Of a stretch of 64,000 bases of DNA, positions 9,631 to 16,854 are shown piece by piece. Origin of the DNA: Candidatus Obscuribacteraceae bacterium (GTDB taxonomy: Bacteria > Cyanobacteriota > Vampirovibrionia > Obscuribacterales > Obscuribacteraceae); contig JBIPOV010000007.1 of the NCBI GenBank assembly GCA_044378815.1, positions 31,259-95,258 on the forward strand, written 5' to 3'. Position 1 is the first letter of the stretch, and every line of letters begins with the position of its first letter. Below the pieces are notes generated by a model. It was not told the DNA's origin. It worked only from the letters and a program-made list of their open reading frames with translations, and did not search any database. Made by a program: the position numbers and the translations under genes.

Positions 9631-12600
9631 ATGGCAATCGACGTCAGACAGTTACCAAAAGATGGCGGCGATGATAAAACTTCGCCGGAAGTTTCTGCGG
9701 CAACTAAGGCTGTTCAAGAGATAACTGTCAAAGATCAAAAATCCCAGACTGCCGCTGCTAAAGGTGACTCGGCTGTTTTACCAGTGGTTAAAATAGACGA
9801 TCTGGCCAAGCCGGCTAAGCCAGTTGATGCCGCTGAGAAGCCGATTGATCGAGTGGCCTTAGAGAAAGACGCTGTGGCAATCAGGCAGGCCACTGGCAAC
9901 GATAATTGGGTAGCTCGCTGGGCTGACAAAGACAAAATAGTTGACTTGCTCAAGGGGCATACCGCTGCAGAGCTCAAGGTGCTTAACGGCATCTACAAGA
10001 TGAAGTATGGCGTTGGTCTTGAGCAAGAGATGTCGTTCATGACCGGTTCGGATAAAGCTCGCTTGACGGCTGTTCTGAACAAGAAAGACGGTAACGAAAA
10101 CACCATAGCCGCCGACCGCATCCATGTTGCTTTGACCGAAAGAGGTGAATGGACCGGAAGAAGTAATTCCATCATCGAGAAAGATTTGCGCGACAGTTTG
10201 CGAACAGCCAATGCTGAGCAAGTAAAGCAAATTTCTGCTGAGTATCAAGAGCGCCATGGCAAGCCACTAGCTCAAGCAATTGCCCAAGACCAAAATCTTT
10301 CGGCTGCCACTAGAGAAGCACTTCTGATCTACCTTAAAGGTAATGATAAGCGTACTCCTGAAGATTTCGCCAAGCTTACTGCTGCCGCTCTAAAGTCTGA
10401 AGATTTGCAGTTCTTCAAAGAGGTGATGAAAGATGCCAGCCCACAAGAGCGTCAGTCGTTCATAGCTGGTGGTGGCGACAAGCAAATGAGAGCAGCTTGG
10501 TCTGGAGCCGACTTGACCCAGGCTCGTGATTTTAGTGCCGATGGTAAGTTGTCTACGGCTACACAAGTCAAAGAAAATACAGGCACTGTTTGGGATAACA
10601 ACAAGGGCATCGAGTTAGCCCTGTCGCGCATGACTGACTCTGAGCGCAGCGATTATCGCATCGGCAGACAGTTGAGCGGTGATAGTAGTCCACTCAGCGC
10701 CCAAGATAGTGAACGCCTTAAGGCTATGTCTCCGGCCGAAAAAGCTACCGCTACAGGACAATATCACACTCTCAGAGCCAGTTTAGAGGCAGCCGGCAAT
10801 GCCACTGAATTGGCCCGTTGGGAATCAATGATCAATGTGCGTGGCGGTTCTATCGCTGCCACTCTCGATCGTCACCGGGGCACACTGTGGAATGATTCGG
10901 CCGCCGACATTGGCACCTCGATTGAGAGCATGTCGAAAAAAGACTGGGAAGCAGCTAAGAACAATCCCGCTGCTCGCAAAGAGCTTGAGCAGATGCTCGA
11001 TAGCCTCAATCAGTCTGAGAAAGATAAGCAGTCATTGCTGAAGATTTTCGATCAAAAAATGAGTGCCAAGACTTTCGAAGAATCGGTTGATACTGGCAAA
11101 GTCTCAGTCGTTGAGCGTATGGACGAAAAATGGCACTTCTATCGCAATGACCAGGGTGCCATGCTTGAAGCTGTTTCTAGCATGTCCAAAGAAGATAGAG
11201 AGCGTTACAAGAGCGACAGCAAATTCAAGGCTGAGCTTGATCAAAAAGTCGATAGCTACATGTCTGGTCAAGCGCGCGACGAAGCGCAAAAGATTCTAAA
11301 AGCTGTTGAACTTGGTGAGAAGCCAGTGTCGACCATCGTGACAAAGCTGACCCAGCATGCAGCTGATGCCTTTGTCGACGAAGGCAAGGCTATTCGTGAT
11401 ATTCGGGATGCTTTCAATGCCGATCCCACTCTTAGAAGTCGCATTAATGAACCCAAGACTGACGCTGACCGAGCCCTGGCAGCTGACTTTAAGAAGGCCG
11501 GAGAGCAGGCATTGGGCAAAGGCATGTATCAAGAATATGTAGGCGAATTGCTGAAAACTGGCTCAATATCTGCCGATAAGATGACTCGACTCTCTAAGGG
11601 ATTTTTCTCTGACGATGAAGCAACAACCTACGAAGATATTGCCAAAGCGCCAAAGGCAGAGCGTGATCGCTTAAGAAATGATATTGCCTATCAAAACACA
11701 GCTTTAGACCATCTCAATAGCGACGAGCGTAAAATTGCTCTGGCTGCTGCTGAGCAGGGCGAGTATCGCAGTGAAGACAAAATTAGGGCGCTCATTTTGG
11801 GCTTTGGTGGCAGCAAAGAAATAGTCGATCAGCTTAAGCAAGTTCCCAGTGAGCAATTGAATCAGCTAAAGAGTGACTATGCTCGCAAGTATGGCAGCAG
11901 CTTTGAAAGCGACTTGATGGCTAAACTAGGTGGCCAAGAAATGGCCGAGGCCCGGCGTGTTTTGACAGCCGATAAGTCACTGGCCGAGCGGGTCAACGTT
12001 GCTCGCGATGAGTCTTACTCTACTCGCAGTGGCATTGGTGCGGGATTCGCTGATTGGGTTAGTGCTACTGGCAAACAGTCCGATGATGCCTTAGACCAAA
12101 TGTTGCAAACCGCTGCCGAAGCTAATCGCAAGGGTGAAGTGGCAAGCCCCGAGCAAATGAAAAAAATGCTTGATGACTTTGCTACTGCCATTGATAATCA
12201 TCGCGAGACCAAGAGTGCAGCTGCTGATTACACCGCTGACGCTCTCATTGCCGGTGGCGCCATTGCTAGTGTGATTGCCACTGGTGGTACTAACTTGCCG
12301 CTTGTTGCAGCGATGCTGGCAGCTGGTGGAGCCGCAACTAAAGTCGGCAGCAAGGCTGTTCTTATGGGTTCCGATTATGATTTCAAACTTAGCACAGTTG
12401 CTAAAGATGCTTCGGTTGGAGCTTTGACTGGCGCTACAGCTGTATTTGGTCAGGCGCAATTGGCAGCAGTCTTCAAGGTCGGTCAGCAGGCGGCTAAAAC
12501 AGCTGCTACTGCTACGCTCAGCACTCTTGCAAGAGAGAGTGTAGATGTTGTGGCCAAGCGTGCAGGCATTGAGCTAGCTGAAGGTGTTGCTGGTAAGCAG

Positions 12601-16854: not shown

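What the first reader, a model, noticed from the sequence alone, without database searches (positions are those of the whole stretch)
9631..16854. 2407-aa giant protein combining annexin-like repeats, Gly/Ala hydrophobic segments and a DUF4157-like HExxH motif
**Seen in the sequence.** This is one uninterrupted 7.2-kb ORF with no signal peptide.
- The first ~800 aa contain at least three repeats with the annexin-type signature (...Y-x3-(Y/H)G-x2-(L/F)-x3-(I/L/M)...), at about 9985-10035, 10235-10290 and 11860-11915.
- 12235-13050 encodes several Gly/Ala-rich hydrophobic stretches of the kind found in membrane-inserting or translocation regions of large toxins.
- 13777-13791 encodes HELTH in the context DGTITLNPDNL...SSYHELTHHEQ. 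This resembles the DUF4157 zincin motif (...I.f...HELtHVvQ) that marks polymorphic-toxin and contractile-injection-system cargo proteins.
- The last ~1000 aa match nothing I recognise.

**Inference.** It may be a secreted or injected effector-like protein with eukaryote-like membrane-binding repeats. It is flanked by an LRR protein upstream and a lipase-like hydrolase downstream.
Basis: partly seen in the sequence, partly recalled or inferred. Interest (0 to 1): 0.65.

Follow-up and report, generated by a model that had tools for sequence, protein, structure and literature searches.

The report
Giant annexin-fronted modular effector protein
This is a real 2407-residue, cysteine-free gene of a non-photosynthetic cyanobacterium (Obscuribacterales) in which a conserved annexin-repeat plus glycine/alanine-rich hydrophobic module sits in front of swappable enzyme-like modules, so it looks like an undescribed toxin or effector platform, although its export and target are unproven.

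Summary
The ORF at 9631-16854 encodes 2407 aa.

- **Annexin:** it passes Pfam's threshold.
- **HExxH:** it is not a chance motif. It is kept in about 93% of some 200 copies of a 430-aa domain (B1) that has 453 cluster representatives in a 1.84-billion-protein library.
- **Domain family:** B1 members weakly match SprT-like, DUF6782, M48 and MPTase-PolyVal zincins, not DUF4157. No injection machinery lies in the window.

The protein belongs to a family seen only in Obscuribacterales/Melainabacteria MAGs. The module order is fixed: annexin array, then a novel hydrophobic "Atm" domain, then variable cargo. Here the cargo is B1 zincin, B2 and a novel C domain. In paralogues it is FHA, PRTase-CE, dual-specificity phosphatase or transglutaminase-like peptidase, with RHS repeats N-terminal to the annexin module.

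Three features point to a conflict-type protein:
- The family is almost free of cysteine (0/2407 here against 1.08% in neighbouring genes).
- The C-terminus is mosaic between alleles.
- The gene and its secreted LRR neighbour evolve faster than flanking housekeeping genes.

My best reading (about 0.5) is an exported, membrane-inserting multi-effector protein in the polymorphic-toxin or AB-toxin style. The main rival is an intracellular, membrane-tethered conflict or signalling protein.

The parts
9631..16854 (+). Complete ORF, 2407 aa, 0 cysteines, no signal peptide
   Evidence: Full-length orthologues at 55-88% identity.
9631..9912 (+). Hydrophilic, probably disordered N-terminal leader (aa 1-94). 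It contains the short family motif AVLPVVKIDD (aa 48-57, nt 9772-9801).
   Evidence: The motif occurs in 47/126 long family proteins, against 5.2+-2.2 in shuffles.
9913..10089 (+). Annexin repeat 1 (aa 95-153)
10162..10347 (+). Annexin repeat 2 (aa 178-239). This is the best Pfam Annexin stretch, aa 190-220.
10348..11814 (+). Conserved helical middle region 'Amid' (aa 240-728), with a possible degenerate annexin repeat at about aa 505-558
   Evidence: No Pfam family.
11815..11970 (+). Annexin repeat 3 (aa 729-780)
12211..13080 (+). 'Atm' domain (aa 861-1150). It is Gly/Ala-rich, with a moderately hydrophobic helical hairpin (868-907), further hydrophobic helices (929-950, 1111-1133) and an amphipathic helical centre. 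Many glycines are invariant. It has no known family.
13153..14466 (+). B1 domain (aa 1175-1612), a mostly helical domain of about 430 aa with an embedded zincin-like core. Three short strands (aa ~1340-1363) precede the HExxH helix.
   Evidence: AF2 model with pLDDT 88 and pTM 0.82. 453 representatives in the profile search. Zincin Pfam hits from family members.
13777..13800 (+). Active-site motif HELTHHEQ (H1383, E1384, H1387, Q1390)
   Evidence: Conservation is H 93%, E 94%, H 95% and Q 94% over about 204 instances.
14368..14394 (+). Distal conserved motif YMQTHEVDA (Y1580, E1585, A1588). E1585 is the candidate third metal ligand.
   Evidence: Conservation is Y 96%, E 97% and A 88% over about 165 instances. 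The ligand role is an inference.
14503..15210 (+). B2 domain (aa 1625-1860), a six-stranded beta unit followed by a helical bundle. It is shared only with the closer paralogues.
   Evidence: No Pfam or PDB match.
15211..16851 (+). C module (aa 1861-2407). Its conserved alpha/beta core spans aa 1941-2120 (nt 15451-15990) with the signature W1965..P1969..D1982-YLLVN1987-xxTG..D1997xT..K2004. It ends in a helical tail.
   Evidence: No Pfam, PDB-sequence or Foldseek match. It is the fastest-diverging part and is mosaic between alleles.
8548..9552 (+). Upstream LRR protein with a signal peptide, 79 nt from the giant gene and after a terminator-like hairpin at 8461-8484. It is probably co-transcribed with the giant gene. 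It evolves fast.
16955..17710 (+). Downstream small alpha/beta-hydrolase-like protein (GHSWG) with a signal or anchor sequence. It is present or absent among relatives, so it is probably not part of the system.

Best explanation
The gene encodes an exported, membrane-targeting multi-effector protein of an Obscuribacterales bacterium, built like a polymorphic or AB-type toxin.

Proposed parts and roles:
- **Delivery platform:** the conserved N-terminal half is an array of three (perhaps four) annexin repeats, followed by a novel Gly/Ala-rich domain ('Atm') of marginally hydrophobic helical hairpins. The annexin repeats would dock the protein on a lipid bilayer. The Atm hairpins would insert and help carry the C-terminal half across.
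- **Cargo:** the C-terminal half is exchangeable. Here it consists of a novel gluzincin-like HExxH metallopeptidase domain (B1), a beta/helical domain (B2), and a novel alpha/beta domain (C). B1 would either cleave target proteins or release the downstream modules.

Shown: the domain boundaries, the annexin identity, conservation of HExxHxxQ...Y....E, cargo shuffling among paralogues, C-terminal mosaicism, fast evolution, and near absence of cysteine.

Inferred: export, membrane insertion, peptidase activity, and the nature of the target (another microbe or a eukaryote).
For: 1. **Fixed order with variable cargo.** In about 200 related proteins the order is ANX-ANX-Amid-ANX-Atm followed by variable modules. 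In paralogues the cargo is FHA, PRTase-CE, a dual-specificity phosphatase (including the Pfam model described as 'Polymorphic toxin system, DSP-PTPase'), or an EDR1/transglutaminase-like peptidase. RHS repeats sit N-terminal to the annexin module in some paralogues.
2. **Conserved platform, mosaic cargo.** Annexin and Atm are 84-98% identical among same-genus alleles, while module C is 54-83%. P0001 and P0002 show opposite patterns (96-98% in the platform against 59-83% in C, versus about 90% against 93-98%). This indicates recombination of the C-terminus.
3. **Cysteine avoidance.** There are 0 Cys in 2407 aa against 1.08% in 32 neighbouring ORFs (P about 5e-12), and 0-0.2% in nearly all of the family (one divergent paralogue, P0048, has 0.55%). 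From general knowledge, this is typical of proteins exported unfolded or acting outside the cell.
4. **Atm hydrophobicity.** The Atm helices lie just under the classical transmembrane threshold (maximum 1.57) and glycines are invariant. This suits a domain that is soluble first and inserts later.
5. **B1 is a zincin.** HExxH is kept in about 93% of instances. The AF2 model shows strands followed by the motif helix. Family members hit SprT-like (best E 6.6e-6), DUF6782, MPTase-PolyVal and M48. BepA, Spartan and Ste24 are sub-threshold PDB hits at the motif.
6. **Fast evolution.** The gene (82-89%) and the adjacent secreted LRR gene (57-75%) diverge faster than flanking genes (HisRS 92-99%, DUF1254 92-97%).
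7. **Precedent.** Annexin domains precede enzymatic toxin domains in PVC-delivered toxins and were proposed to help breach target membranes (PMC3482391). Bacterial annexins fused to metalloproteases, toxin domains and TM segments are also described (PMC3894181).
Against: - No signal peptide and no recognisable secretion-system domain (PAAR, LXG, RTX, T9SS CTD and the like) was found. No secretion or injection genes were found among those annotated in the 64-kb window.
- No obvious cognate immunity gene follows the ORF. The downstream gene is conserved at 93-94% and is missing in one relative.
- FHA, phosphatase and PRTase domains in paralogues are typical of cytoplasmic signalling or conflict systems.
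- RHS repeats lie upstream of the annexin module, not directly before a small C-terminal toxin as in classical Rhs toxins.
- Neither the query nor module C matches any known toxin family. Foldseek found no PDB relative for B1, B2 or C.
- No RNA data were available.
Confidence: 0.5

Rival explanations
1. It is an intracellular, membrane-tethered conflict or signalling protein. The Atm hairpins anchor it in the cytoplasmic membrane with both halves in the cytoplasm. The annexin array senses or remodels the inner leaflet. The C-terminal enzymes (here the zincin and module C; elsewhere FHA, phosphatase, PRTase) act on the cell's own components, for example in abortive infection, programmed death or envelope-stress signalling.
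For: There is no signal peptide anywhere in the family. An even number of hydrophobic helices arranged as hairpins would keep both ends on one side of the membrane. FHA, DSP-phosphatase and PRTase-CE domains in paralogues are mostly cytoplasmic domain types. No immunity gene or secretion genes lie nearby. The gene sits among housekeeping genes with ordinary composition.
Against: A family-wide near absence of cysteine is not expected for cytoplasmic enzymes. No segment reaches the usual hydrophobicity of a constitutive transmembrane anchor. PADLOC has no significant match for the protein, its neighbours or one paralogue. RHS repeats in paralogues and the allele mosaicism of the C-terminus fit antagonistic exported proteins better.
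Confidence: 0.25
2. It is a type-II-like surface or periplasmic protein. The N-terminal annexin half stays in the cytoplasm, the Atm region spans the membrane, and the C-terminal 1250 aa are exposed on the outside as a cell-surface peptidase, adhesin or cell-cell recognition protein, in a teneurin-like layout.
For: An internal hydrophobic region with no N-terminal signal peptide. RHS/YD repeats occur in paralogues. The low cysteine content and fast-evolving C-terminus fit an exposed domain. Secreted LRR and low-complexity proteins are encoded next door.
Against: In the paralogues the RHS repeats lie on the N-terminal side of the hydrophobic region, and FHA, phosphatase and PRTase domains on the C-terminal side. 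That is the opposite of what an outside-facing C-terminus predicts. The hydrophobic helices are marginal and come in hairpins. No adhesin-type repeats occur in B1, B2 or C.
Confidence: 0.1
3. One reading: a DUF4157-type zincin cargo protein loaded into a contractile injection system (eCIS/PVC-like), with annexin as an accessory domain.
For: Published PVC-delivered toxins combine a DUF4157/PVC-metallopeptidase with a single annexin domain and a C-terminal toxin (PMC3482391, PMC3894181). The local pattern (G-x-I-x-L ... HELTHxxQ) resembles the DUF4157 motif as recalled from memory.
Against: There is no DUF4157 Pfam hit for the protein or among 102 scanned family members. Other zincin families recur instead. 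The zincin is internal (aa ~1340-1400), not N-terminal. At 2407 aa the protein is far larger than typical eCIS cargo (general knowledge). No tail, sheath or baseplate genes were found among the genes annotated in the window or in orthologous loci.
Confidence: 0.05

Closest known systems
Bacterial annexin-containing toxins (PVC/eCIS-delivered polymorphic toxins of Haliangium and Microscilla; Zhang et al. 2012, PMC3482391; Kodavali et al. 2014, PMC3894181)
   Same: Annexin repeats lie upstream of enzymatic domains, including a zincin. Some of those proteins have predicted TM segments. The proposed role of annexin is as a membrane-docking or membrane-breaching accessory.
   Different: Here three dispersed repeats sit within an 800-aa conserved array, rather than a single annexin domain. 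There is no N-terminal DUF4157/PVC-metallopeptidase. The hydrophobic domain, the zincin family and the C-terminal domain are all different and novel. The family is confined to Obscuribacterales/Melainabacteria, and no eCIS context was found.
Polymorphic toxin systems (Rhs/YD, CDI, MAF types)
   Same: A conserved N-terminal part is followed by shuffled C-terminal enzymatic modules. There is allele mosaicism, fast evolution, RHS repeats in paralogues, and tandem paralogues in one genome.
   Different: No recognisable trafficking domain and no adjacent immunity gene. The RHS repeats are not immediately upstream of a small toxin tip. The cargo is multi-domain and very large (about 1250 aa).
Large multi-domain AB-type toxins with an internal hydrophobic delivery region (large clostridial toxins, MARTX) - functional analogy only, from general knowledge
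   Same: Giant single polypeptides that combine membrane-binding repeats, a moderately hydrophobic helical delivery region, an internal protease and enzymatic effectors. MARTX/RTX toxins are also cysteine-poor.
   Different: No sequence or fold relationship was detected. The domain order differs. The protease is a zincin rather than a cysteine protease domain. There are no RTX or CROP repeats.
Gluzincin-type minimal zincins: SprT-like (PF10263), DUF6782, MPTase-PolyVal (PF18818), Peptidase_M48 (BepA/Ste24/HtpX)
   Same: A beta-strand and a helix carrying HExxH, then a distal Glu-containing helix. In B1 this is E1585-x-[DE]-A, which resembles the M48 'E-x-x-A-D' as recalled from memory. Family members give weak to moderate Pfam and PDB hits exactly over the motif region.
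   Different: The query itself matches none of them. The core is embedded in a helical domain of about 430 aa, with about 200 residues between HExxH and the putative third ligand. The extra invariant Q (HExxHxxQ) and Y1580 are family-specific. Foldseek finds no PDB relative for the whole domain.

Membership tests
Annexin (Pfam PF00191) | Sequence match to the annexin repeat profile at or above the curated threshold | tested here: met
   26.7 bits against a gathering score of 25, E 6e-6. Homologues score 28-44 bits. Annexin XII (1dm5) gives E 2.5e-5 over two repeats.
Annexin (Pfam PF00191) | Repeated units of about 60-70 aa, classically four forming one core | tested here: inconclusive
   Three clear repeats (aa 95-153, 178-239, 729-780). 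A fourth at about 505-558 is marginal (P 0.005). Repeat 3 lies 490 aa from repeat 2, so a classical tetrad is not shown. The N-terminal half was not modelled.
Annexin (Pfam PF00191) | Type II Ca2+ site (GxGT loop plus an acidic residue about 38 positions later) | tested here: not met
   By reading the sequence, the loops before repeats 1 and 2 are remodelled (ATGNDNWVARWAD; GEWTGRS) and carry conserved Trp. Repeat 3 has GFGGS, but the cap position is Lys. This is an inspection by eye, not a structural test.
Annexin (Pfam PF00191) | Ca2+- or lipid-dependent membrane binding | not testable with these tools
   Needs liposome binding assays on aa 60-860.
Zincin metallopeptidases (HExxH; gluzincin type) | HExxH conserved across the family | tested here: met
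   Invariant in 16 homologues down to 20% identity. H 93%, E 94% and H 95% over about 204 instances.
Zincin metallopeptidases (HExxH; gluzincin type) | Fold: beta-strands followed by the active-site helix carrying HExxH | tested here: met
   The AF2 model (pLDDT 88) has strands at model residues 166-169, 181-183 and 186-189. Helix 197-227 contains HExxH at 209-213. Foldseek gave no PDB zincin hit for the whole domain.
Zincin metallopeptidases (HExxH; gluzincin type) | Third metal ligand | tested here: inconclusive
   E1585 (97% conserved, in E-x-[DE]-A at the start of the last helix) is the candidate.
Zincin metallopeptidases (HExxH; gluzincin type) | Significant match to a curated zincin family | tested here: inconclusive
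   The query has no hit. Among family members, SprT-like matches 7/57 and 6/45 (best E 6.6e-6), DUF6782 matches 7/57 and 6/45, MPTase-PolyVal 3 and M48 3. PDB BepA, Spartan and Ste24 give E 0.16-1.2.
DUF4157 (PF13699, eCIS/PVC cargo zincin) | Match to the DUF4157 profile | tested here: not met
   No hit at E<=10 for the protein or its 200-aa and 400-aa segments. DUF4157 is not among the top 25 families for 57 or 45 scanned family members.
DUF4157 (PF13699, eCIS/PVC cargo zincin) | N-terminal position in the cargo protein, and an eCIS/PVC locus in the neighbourhood | tested here: not met
   The motif is at aa 1383 of 2407. No sheath, tube or baseplate genes are among the annotated neighbours or the ten largest other ORFs of the window. 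The rest of the genome was not examined.
Polymorphic toxin systems | Conserved N-terminal region with C-terminal domains exchanged between paralogues or alleles | tested here: met
Polymorphic toxin systems | Recognisable trafficking or secretion domain | tested here: not met
   No Pfam or NCBIfam hit other than Annexin. Only a short enriched N-terminal motif of unknown meaning was found.
Polymorphic toxin systems | Cognate immunity gene immediately downstream that co-varies with the toxin tip | tested here: not met
   The downstream gene is a signal-peptide hydrolase-like protein. It is 93-94% conserved while module C varies, and it is absent in L006. The 55% orthologue has a different context.
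Polymorphic toxin systems | Toxicity of the C-terminal domain | not testable with these tools
   Needs expression assays.

The most novel reading that the evidence does not exclude
The annexin array plus the Atm domain is a previously unknown, self-contained protein-translocation platform specific to non-photosynthetic cyanobacteria. It docks on a target (possibly eukaryotic) membrane through Trp-bearing, Ca2+-independent annexin loops. It inserts Gly/Ala helical hairpins and carries more than 1000 aa of interchangeable enzymatic cargo across. That cargo includes a new gluzincin family (HExxHxxQ...Y....E) and a new alpha/beta enzyme-like domain. Release from the producer would use a new N-terminal signal rather than any known secretion system.
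Probability: 0.2. Interest if true: 0.8.

Novelty: new variant of a known kind. Interest (0 to 1): 0.6.

Why it matters
If the reading is right, four things follow.
- Obscuribacterales are a widespread but uncultured sister lineage of the photosynthetic cyanobacteria. They would carry a large, diversifying arsenal of giant proteins, up to about 7700 aa, built on one conserved annexin and hydrophobic platform.
- This would be a bacterial case where annexin repeats act as the membrane-targeting part of a delivery device.
- It would define at least three new domain families: Atm, the B1 gluzincin and the C core. B1 has hundreds of representatives, and all three are currently unannotated.
- It would hint at an antagonistic or predatory lifestyle for a group known only from metagenomes.

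If the intracellular rival is right, the family is instead a new membrane-tethered conflict or signalling system. In either case the HExxH domain is a testable new peptidase family.

Tried and rejected
- **Curated family scans of the whole protein.** Pfam and NCBIfam scans of the whole protein and of 400-aa segments gave only Annexin. No DUF4157 or other zincin hit appeared.
- **PDB sequence searches.** Searches with the protein and with profiles of B1, C, C-core, Atm and B1-core found nothing significant except annexin. Zincins appear only below threshold.
- **Kinase idea for module C.** I considered a protein-kinase-like reading of the motif D1982-x4-N1987...D1997. I dropped it because the model shows only a small alpha/beta core with short strands and no kinase match. 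A PD-(D/E)xK-like nuclease core remains a guess without support from any search.
- **Word-indexed homologue searches.** Searches with the B1 and C alignments returned few new proteins. The exhaustive profile search was far more informative.
- **Defence systems.** PADLOC found nothing significant.
- **Shared C-terminal export signal.** The C-termini of family members are unrelated.
- **Expression.** No RNA runs could be listed.
- **Non-coding features.** No Rfam family or tRNA was found in the window.
- **Literature.** No paper in the library describes this family, DUF6782 or PRTase-CE.
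Full report
**1.

The window has a single ATG-initiated ORF at 9631..16854 (+) of 2407 codons. 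Composition along it (46-51% GC) is like the surroundings. The N-terminus is hydrophilic and has no signal peptide.

- nt 9985-10035, 10235-10290 and 11860-11915 fall inside three annexin repeats at aa 95-153, 178-239 and 729-780. I recovered these independently by iterative HMM searching within the family and by hhalign (E 5e-19, 3e-16, 7e-14).
- nt 12235-13050 is the Gly/Ala-rich hydrophobic region (22% Ala, 13% Gly).
- nt 13777-13791 encodes HELTH, the only HExxH in the protein.

Pfam Annexin scores 26.7 bits against a gathering score of 25. Annexin XII is the only significant PDB sequence match (E 2.5e-5). The upstream gene is an LRR protein. The downstream gene is only weakly hydrolase-like but carries GHSWG.

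**2. Organism and family**

Homologues come only from Candidatus Obscuribacter, Obscuribacterales, Melainabacteria or 'Cyanobacteriota' MAGs:
- Among the 48 proteins of the first search, every one that carries a source name is from these groups.
- So are 19 of the 20 genome loci. One is a MAG labelled Flavobacterium psychrophilum, which I take to be a mislabel. One locus lies on a complete 6.69-Mb chromosome, OZ245871.1.
- Every named cluster among the distant hits is from the same groups.

The exact protein occurs on 15 metagenome contigs. The gene lies among ordinary chromosomal genes: HisRS, MarR, DUF1254/DUF1214, a histidine phosphatase, a glycosyltransferase, then histidine kinases, GGDEF, a sulfatase and SPFH. 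None of the annotated genes encodes secretion or injection machinery.

**3. Anatomy**

BLAST against the homologues splits the protein into modules.
- **Module A (aa ~60-1140)** is shared by all 48 homologues. It consists of two annexin repeats, a conserved helical region of about 490 aa (Amid), a third annexin repeat, and then 'Atm' (aa 861-1150).
- **B1 (aa 1175-1612)** is shared with a subset.
- **B2 (aa 1625-1860)** is shared with closer paralogues only.
- **C (aa 1861-2407)** is found in orthologues, and its core also occurs in more distant giant proteins.

With my own HMMs for each module, about 200 related proteins show one invariant order: ANX-ANX-Amid-ANX-Atm-(inserts)-B1-(B2)-(C). 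Some have several B1 copies, and many hits contain B1 alone.

Paralogues replace or extend the cargo with FHA, PRTase-CE, dual-specificity phosphatases or an EDR1/CTR1 transglutaminase-like peptidase. The phosphatase matches include the Pfam model described as 'Polymorphic toxin system, DSP-PTPase'. Some paralogues carry RHS repeats N-terminal to the annexin module. In the genome holding the 55% orthologue, a second family member of more than 3500 aa lies 1 kb downstream.

**4. The HExxH domain (B1)**

The motif is invariant in homologues down to 20-30% identity. An exhaustive profile search of 1.84 billion representative proteins found 453 with E<=1e-3 and 301 with E<=1e-10. Many are giants of 2000-7750 aa.

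Over about 200 domain instances the signature is as follows:

| Position | Conservation |
|---|---|
| H1383 | 93% |
| E1384 | 94% |
| H1387 | 95% |
| Q1390 | 94% |
| Y1580 (distal) | 96% |
| E1585 (distal) | 97% |
| A1588 (distal) | 88% |

A minority of copies have KQxxH and are presumably inactive.

AlphaFold2 on a 10-sequence alignment gave a confident model (pLDDT 88, pTM 0.82). Three short strands are followed directly by a long helix carrying HExxH, and the rest is helical. That is the zincin N-subdomain topology.

E1585 opens the last helix in the context E-x-[DE]-A. This resembles the Glu helix of gluzincins such as M48, but that comparison is from memory.

Evidence on curated families:
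- The query matches no curated zincin family.
- Family members repeatedly hit zincins over exactly this region. SprT-like matched 7 of 57 and 6 of 45 members (best E 6.6e-6). DUF6782 'putative metallopeptidase' matched 7 and 6. MPTase-PolyVal matched 3 and Peptidase_M48 matched 3. M78, M90 and Zincin_1 matched one each.
- A 45-sequence core profile gives sub-threshold PDB hits to BepA, Spartan and Ste24 aligned on G-x-I-x-L...HExxH.
- DUF4157 never appears.
- Foldseek finds no PDB relative of the whole domain.

I conclude that B1 is a new zincin (probably gluzincin) family, not DUF4157.

**5. Atm, B2 and C are unannotated domains**

- **Atm.** It has a hairpin of two Gly/Ala helices (aa 868-907), a conserved G-x-D-Y-D loop, further hydrophobic helices (929-950, 1111-1133) and an amphipathic centre. 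Many glycines are invariant. The maximum 19-residue hydropathy is 1.57, just below the classical transmembrane cut-off. No Pfam or PDB sequence match exists.
- **B2 and C.** They were modelled together (pLDDT 78, with most 10-residue blocks of the folded parts at 75-93). B2 is a six-stranded beta unit plus a helical bundle. C has a small alpha/beta core and helical extensions.
- **C core.** Its signature is W..P...D-[YF]-[IL]-L-[VI]-N-x-x-T-G...[LI]-D-x-[TS]...K...R. It recurs in more than 30 other giant proteins. It has no Pfam, PDB or Foldseek match.

**6. Signs of an exported, antagonistic protein**

- **Cysteine.** There are 0 Cys in 2407 residues, against 1.08% in 32 other ORFs of the window (P about 5e-12). 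Nearly all of the family has 0-0.2% (one divergent paralogue, P0048, has 0.55%).
- **Gradient and mosaic.** Among same-genus alleles the platform is 84-98% identical and module C is 54-83%. P0001 is 96-98% identical in the platform but 59-83% in C. P0002 is about 90% identical in the platform but 93-98% over most of C (80% in its last 107 residues). This points to C-terminal recombination.
- **Rates.** In those genomes HisRS is 92-99% identical and DUF1254 92-97%. The giant protein is 82-89% and the adjacent signal-peptide LRR protein only 57-75%.
- **N-terminal motif.** A short motif, [GA]x[LV][PH]x[VL]x[ILV]x[DEG], lies 46-80 residues from the start (AVLPVVKIDD here). It occurs in 47 of 126 long family proteins, against 5.2+-2.2 in shuffles. 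Relatedness among the proteins inflates this count, but the motif spans divergent paralogues.

Against export:
- There is no known trafficking domain.
- C-termini share no motif.
- There are no nearby secretion genes and no downstream immunity gene. The downstream gene is well conserved and is absent in L006.
- FHA, phosphatase and PRTase cargo has a cytoplasmic flavour.
- PADLOC finds no defence-system match.
- No transcript data could be obtained.

**7. Mechanism proposed**

The most likely reading (about 0.5) has four steps:
1. The protein leaves the cell by an unidentified route.
2. The annexin array docks on a lipid bilayer. The classical Ca2+ loops are replaced by conserved Trp-bearing loops in repeats 1-2. 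That is my reading of the sequence and is untested.
3. The marginally hydrophobic Atm hairpins insert.
4. The C-terminal cargo acts on the other side. B1 either processes the polypeptide to release B2 and C, or cleaves target proteins.

The architecture, conservation patterns, cysteine avoidance and mosaicism are shown. Export, insertion, catalysis and target are inferred.

The main rival (about 0.25) keeps the whole protein inside the cell, tethered by the hairpins, as a conflict or signalling device. A type-II surface protein (about 0.1) fits the paralogue domain order poorly. The eCIS/DUF4157 version (about 0.05) fails its membership tests.

**8. Relation to what is known**

Annexin domains upstream of enzymatic toxin domains, and bacterial annexins fused to metalloproteases and TM segments, have been described (PMC3482391, PMC3894181). 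Those annexins were proposed to help breach target membranes.

This family shares that logic and the cargo shuffling of polymorphic toxins. It differs in its multi-repeat conserved platform, its new hydrophobic domain, its new zincin family, its new C-terminal domain, its restriction to Melainabacteria, and its lack of recognisable trafficking and immunity components. I found no paper describing it.

I rate it a new variant of a known kind, of moderate to high interest.

Noticed in passing
window 9772-9801 (aa 48-57, AVLPVVKIDD): A short motif, [GA]x[LV][PH]x[VL]x[ILV]x[DEG], lies 46-80 residues from the N-terminus of many otherwise divergent family members. It occurs in 47/126 proteins against about 5 in shuffles. 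It could be an export or recognition signal.
   Followed up: partly
window 8548-9552 (+); L008 7954-9919: The signal-peptide LRR gene just upstream is the fastest-evolving gene of the neighbourhood. It is 57-75% identical among same-genus MAGs where HisRS is 92-99%, and it is duplicated in L008. It may be a partner, adaptor or immunity-like factor of the giant protein.
   Followed up: partly
window 7804-8427 (+): A secreted 207-aa Asn/Gln/Gly-rich low-complexity protein with a signal peptide and no Pfam family. It also varies widely (55-90% identity) among close relatives.
   Followed up: no
window ~13843-13941 (aa ~1405-1437, inside B1): The stretch right after the HExxH helix weakly resembles an annexin half-repeat. 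The B1-core profile hits annexin V and alpha-11 giardin at E 0.03-0.3. The family's annexin-repeat HMM gives E 6.9 here. Neither is significant.
   Followed up: partly
L004 18291-27344 and L011 18291-27335: In the genome with the 55% orthologue, a second family member of more than 3500 aa (Amid-Amid-Atm...) lies about 1 kb downstream. These giant genes can therefore occur in tandem.
   Followed up: partly
window 15211-16851 (module C), compared with P0001 and P0002: Identity between alleles is mosaic. P0001 is 96-98% identical in the annexin/Atm half but 59-83% in C. P0002 is about 90% identical in the front half but 93-98% over most of C (80% in its last 107 residues). This suggests recombination breakpoints near the B2/C boundary.
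   Followed up: partly
window 1263-3116 (+): A 617-aa ORF with no Pfam hit. Its C-terminal end (…GWCAREFQIAW…GGHVATL…) looks by eye like a Cys/His amidase or peptidase of the CHAP/NlpC type. This was not tested.
   Followed up: no
L005 (CALRJJ020000025.1): A MAG contig labelled 'Flavobacterium psychrophilum' carries an 88% orthologue with the same Obscuribacterales synteny. The label is almost certainly a binning or taxonomy error.
   Followed up: no
window 16955-17710 (+) versus L006: The downstream hydrolase-like gene is absent in L006, where the giant gene is followed directly by the DUF1254/DUF1214 gene. It is an indel unrelated to the giant gene's C-terminal type.
   Followed up: partly
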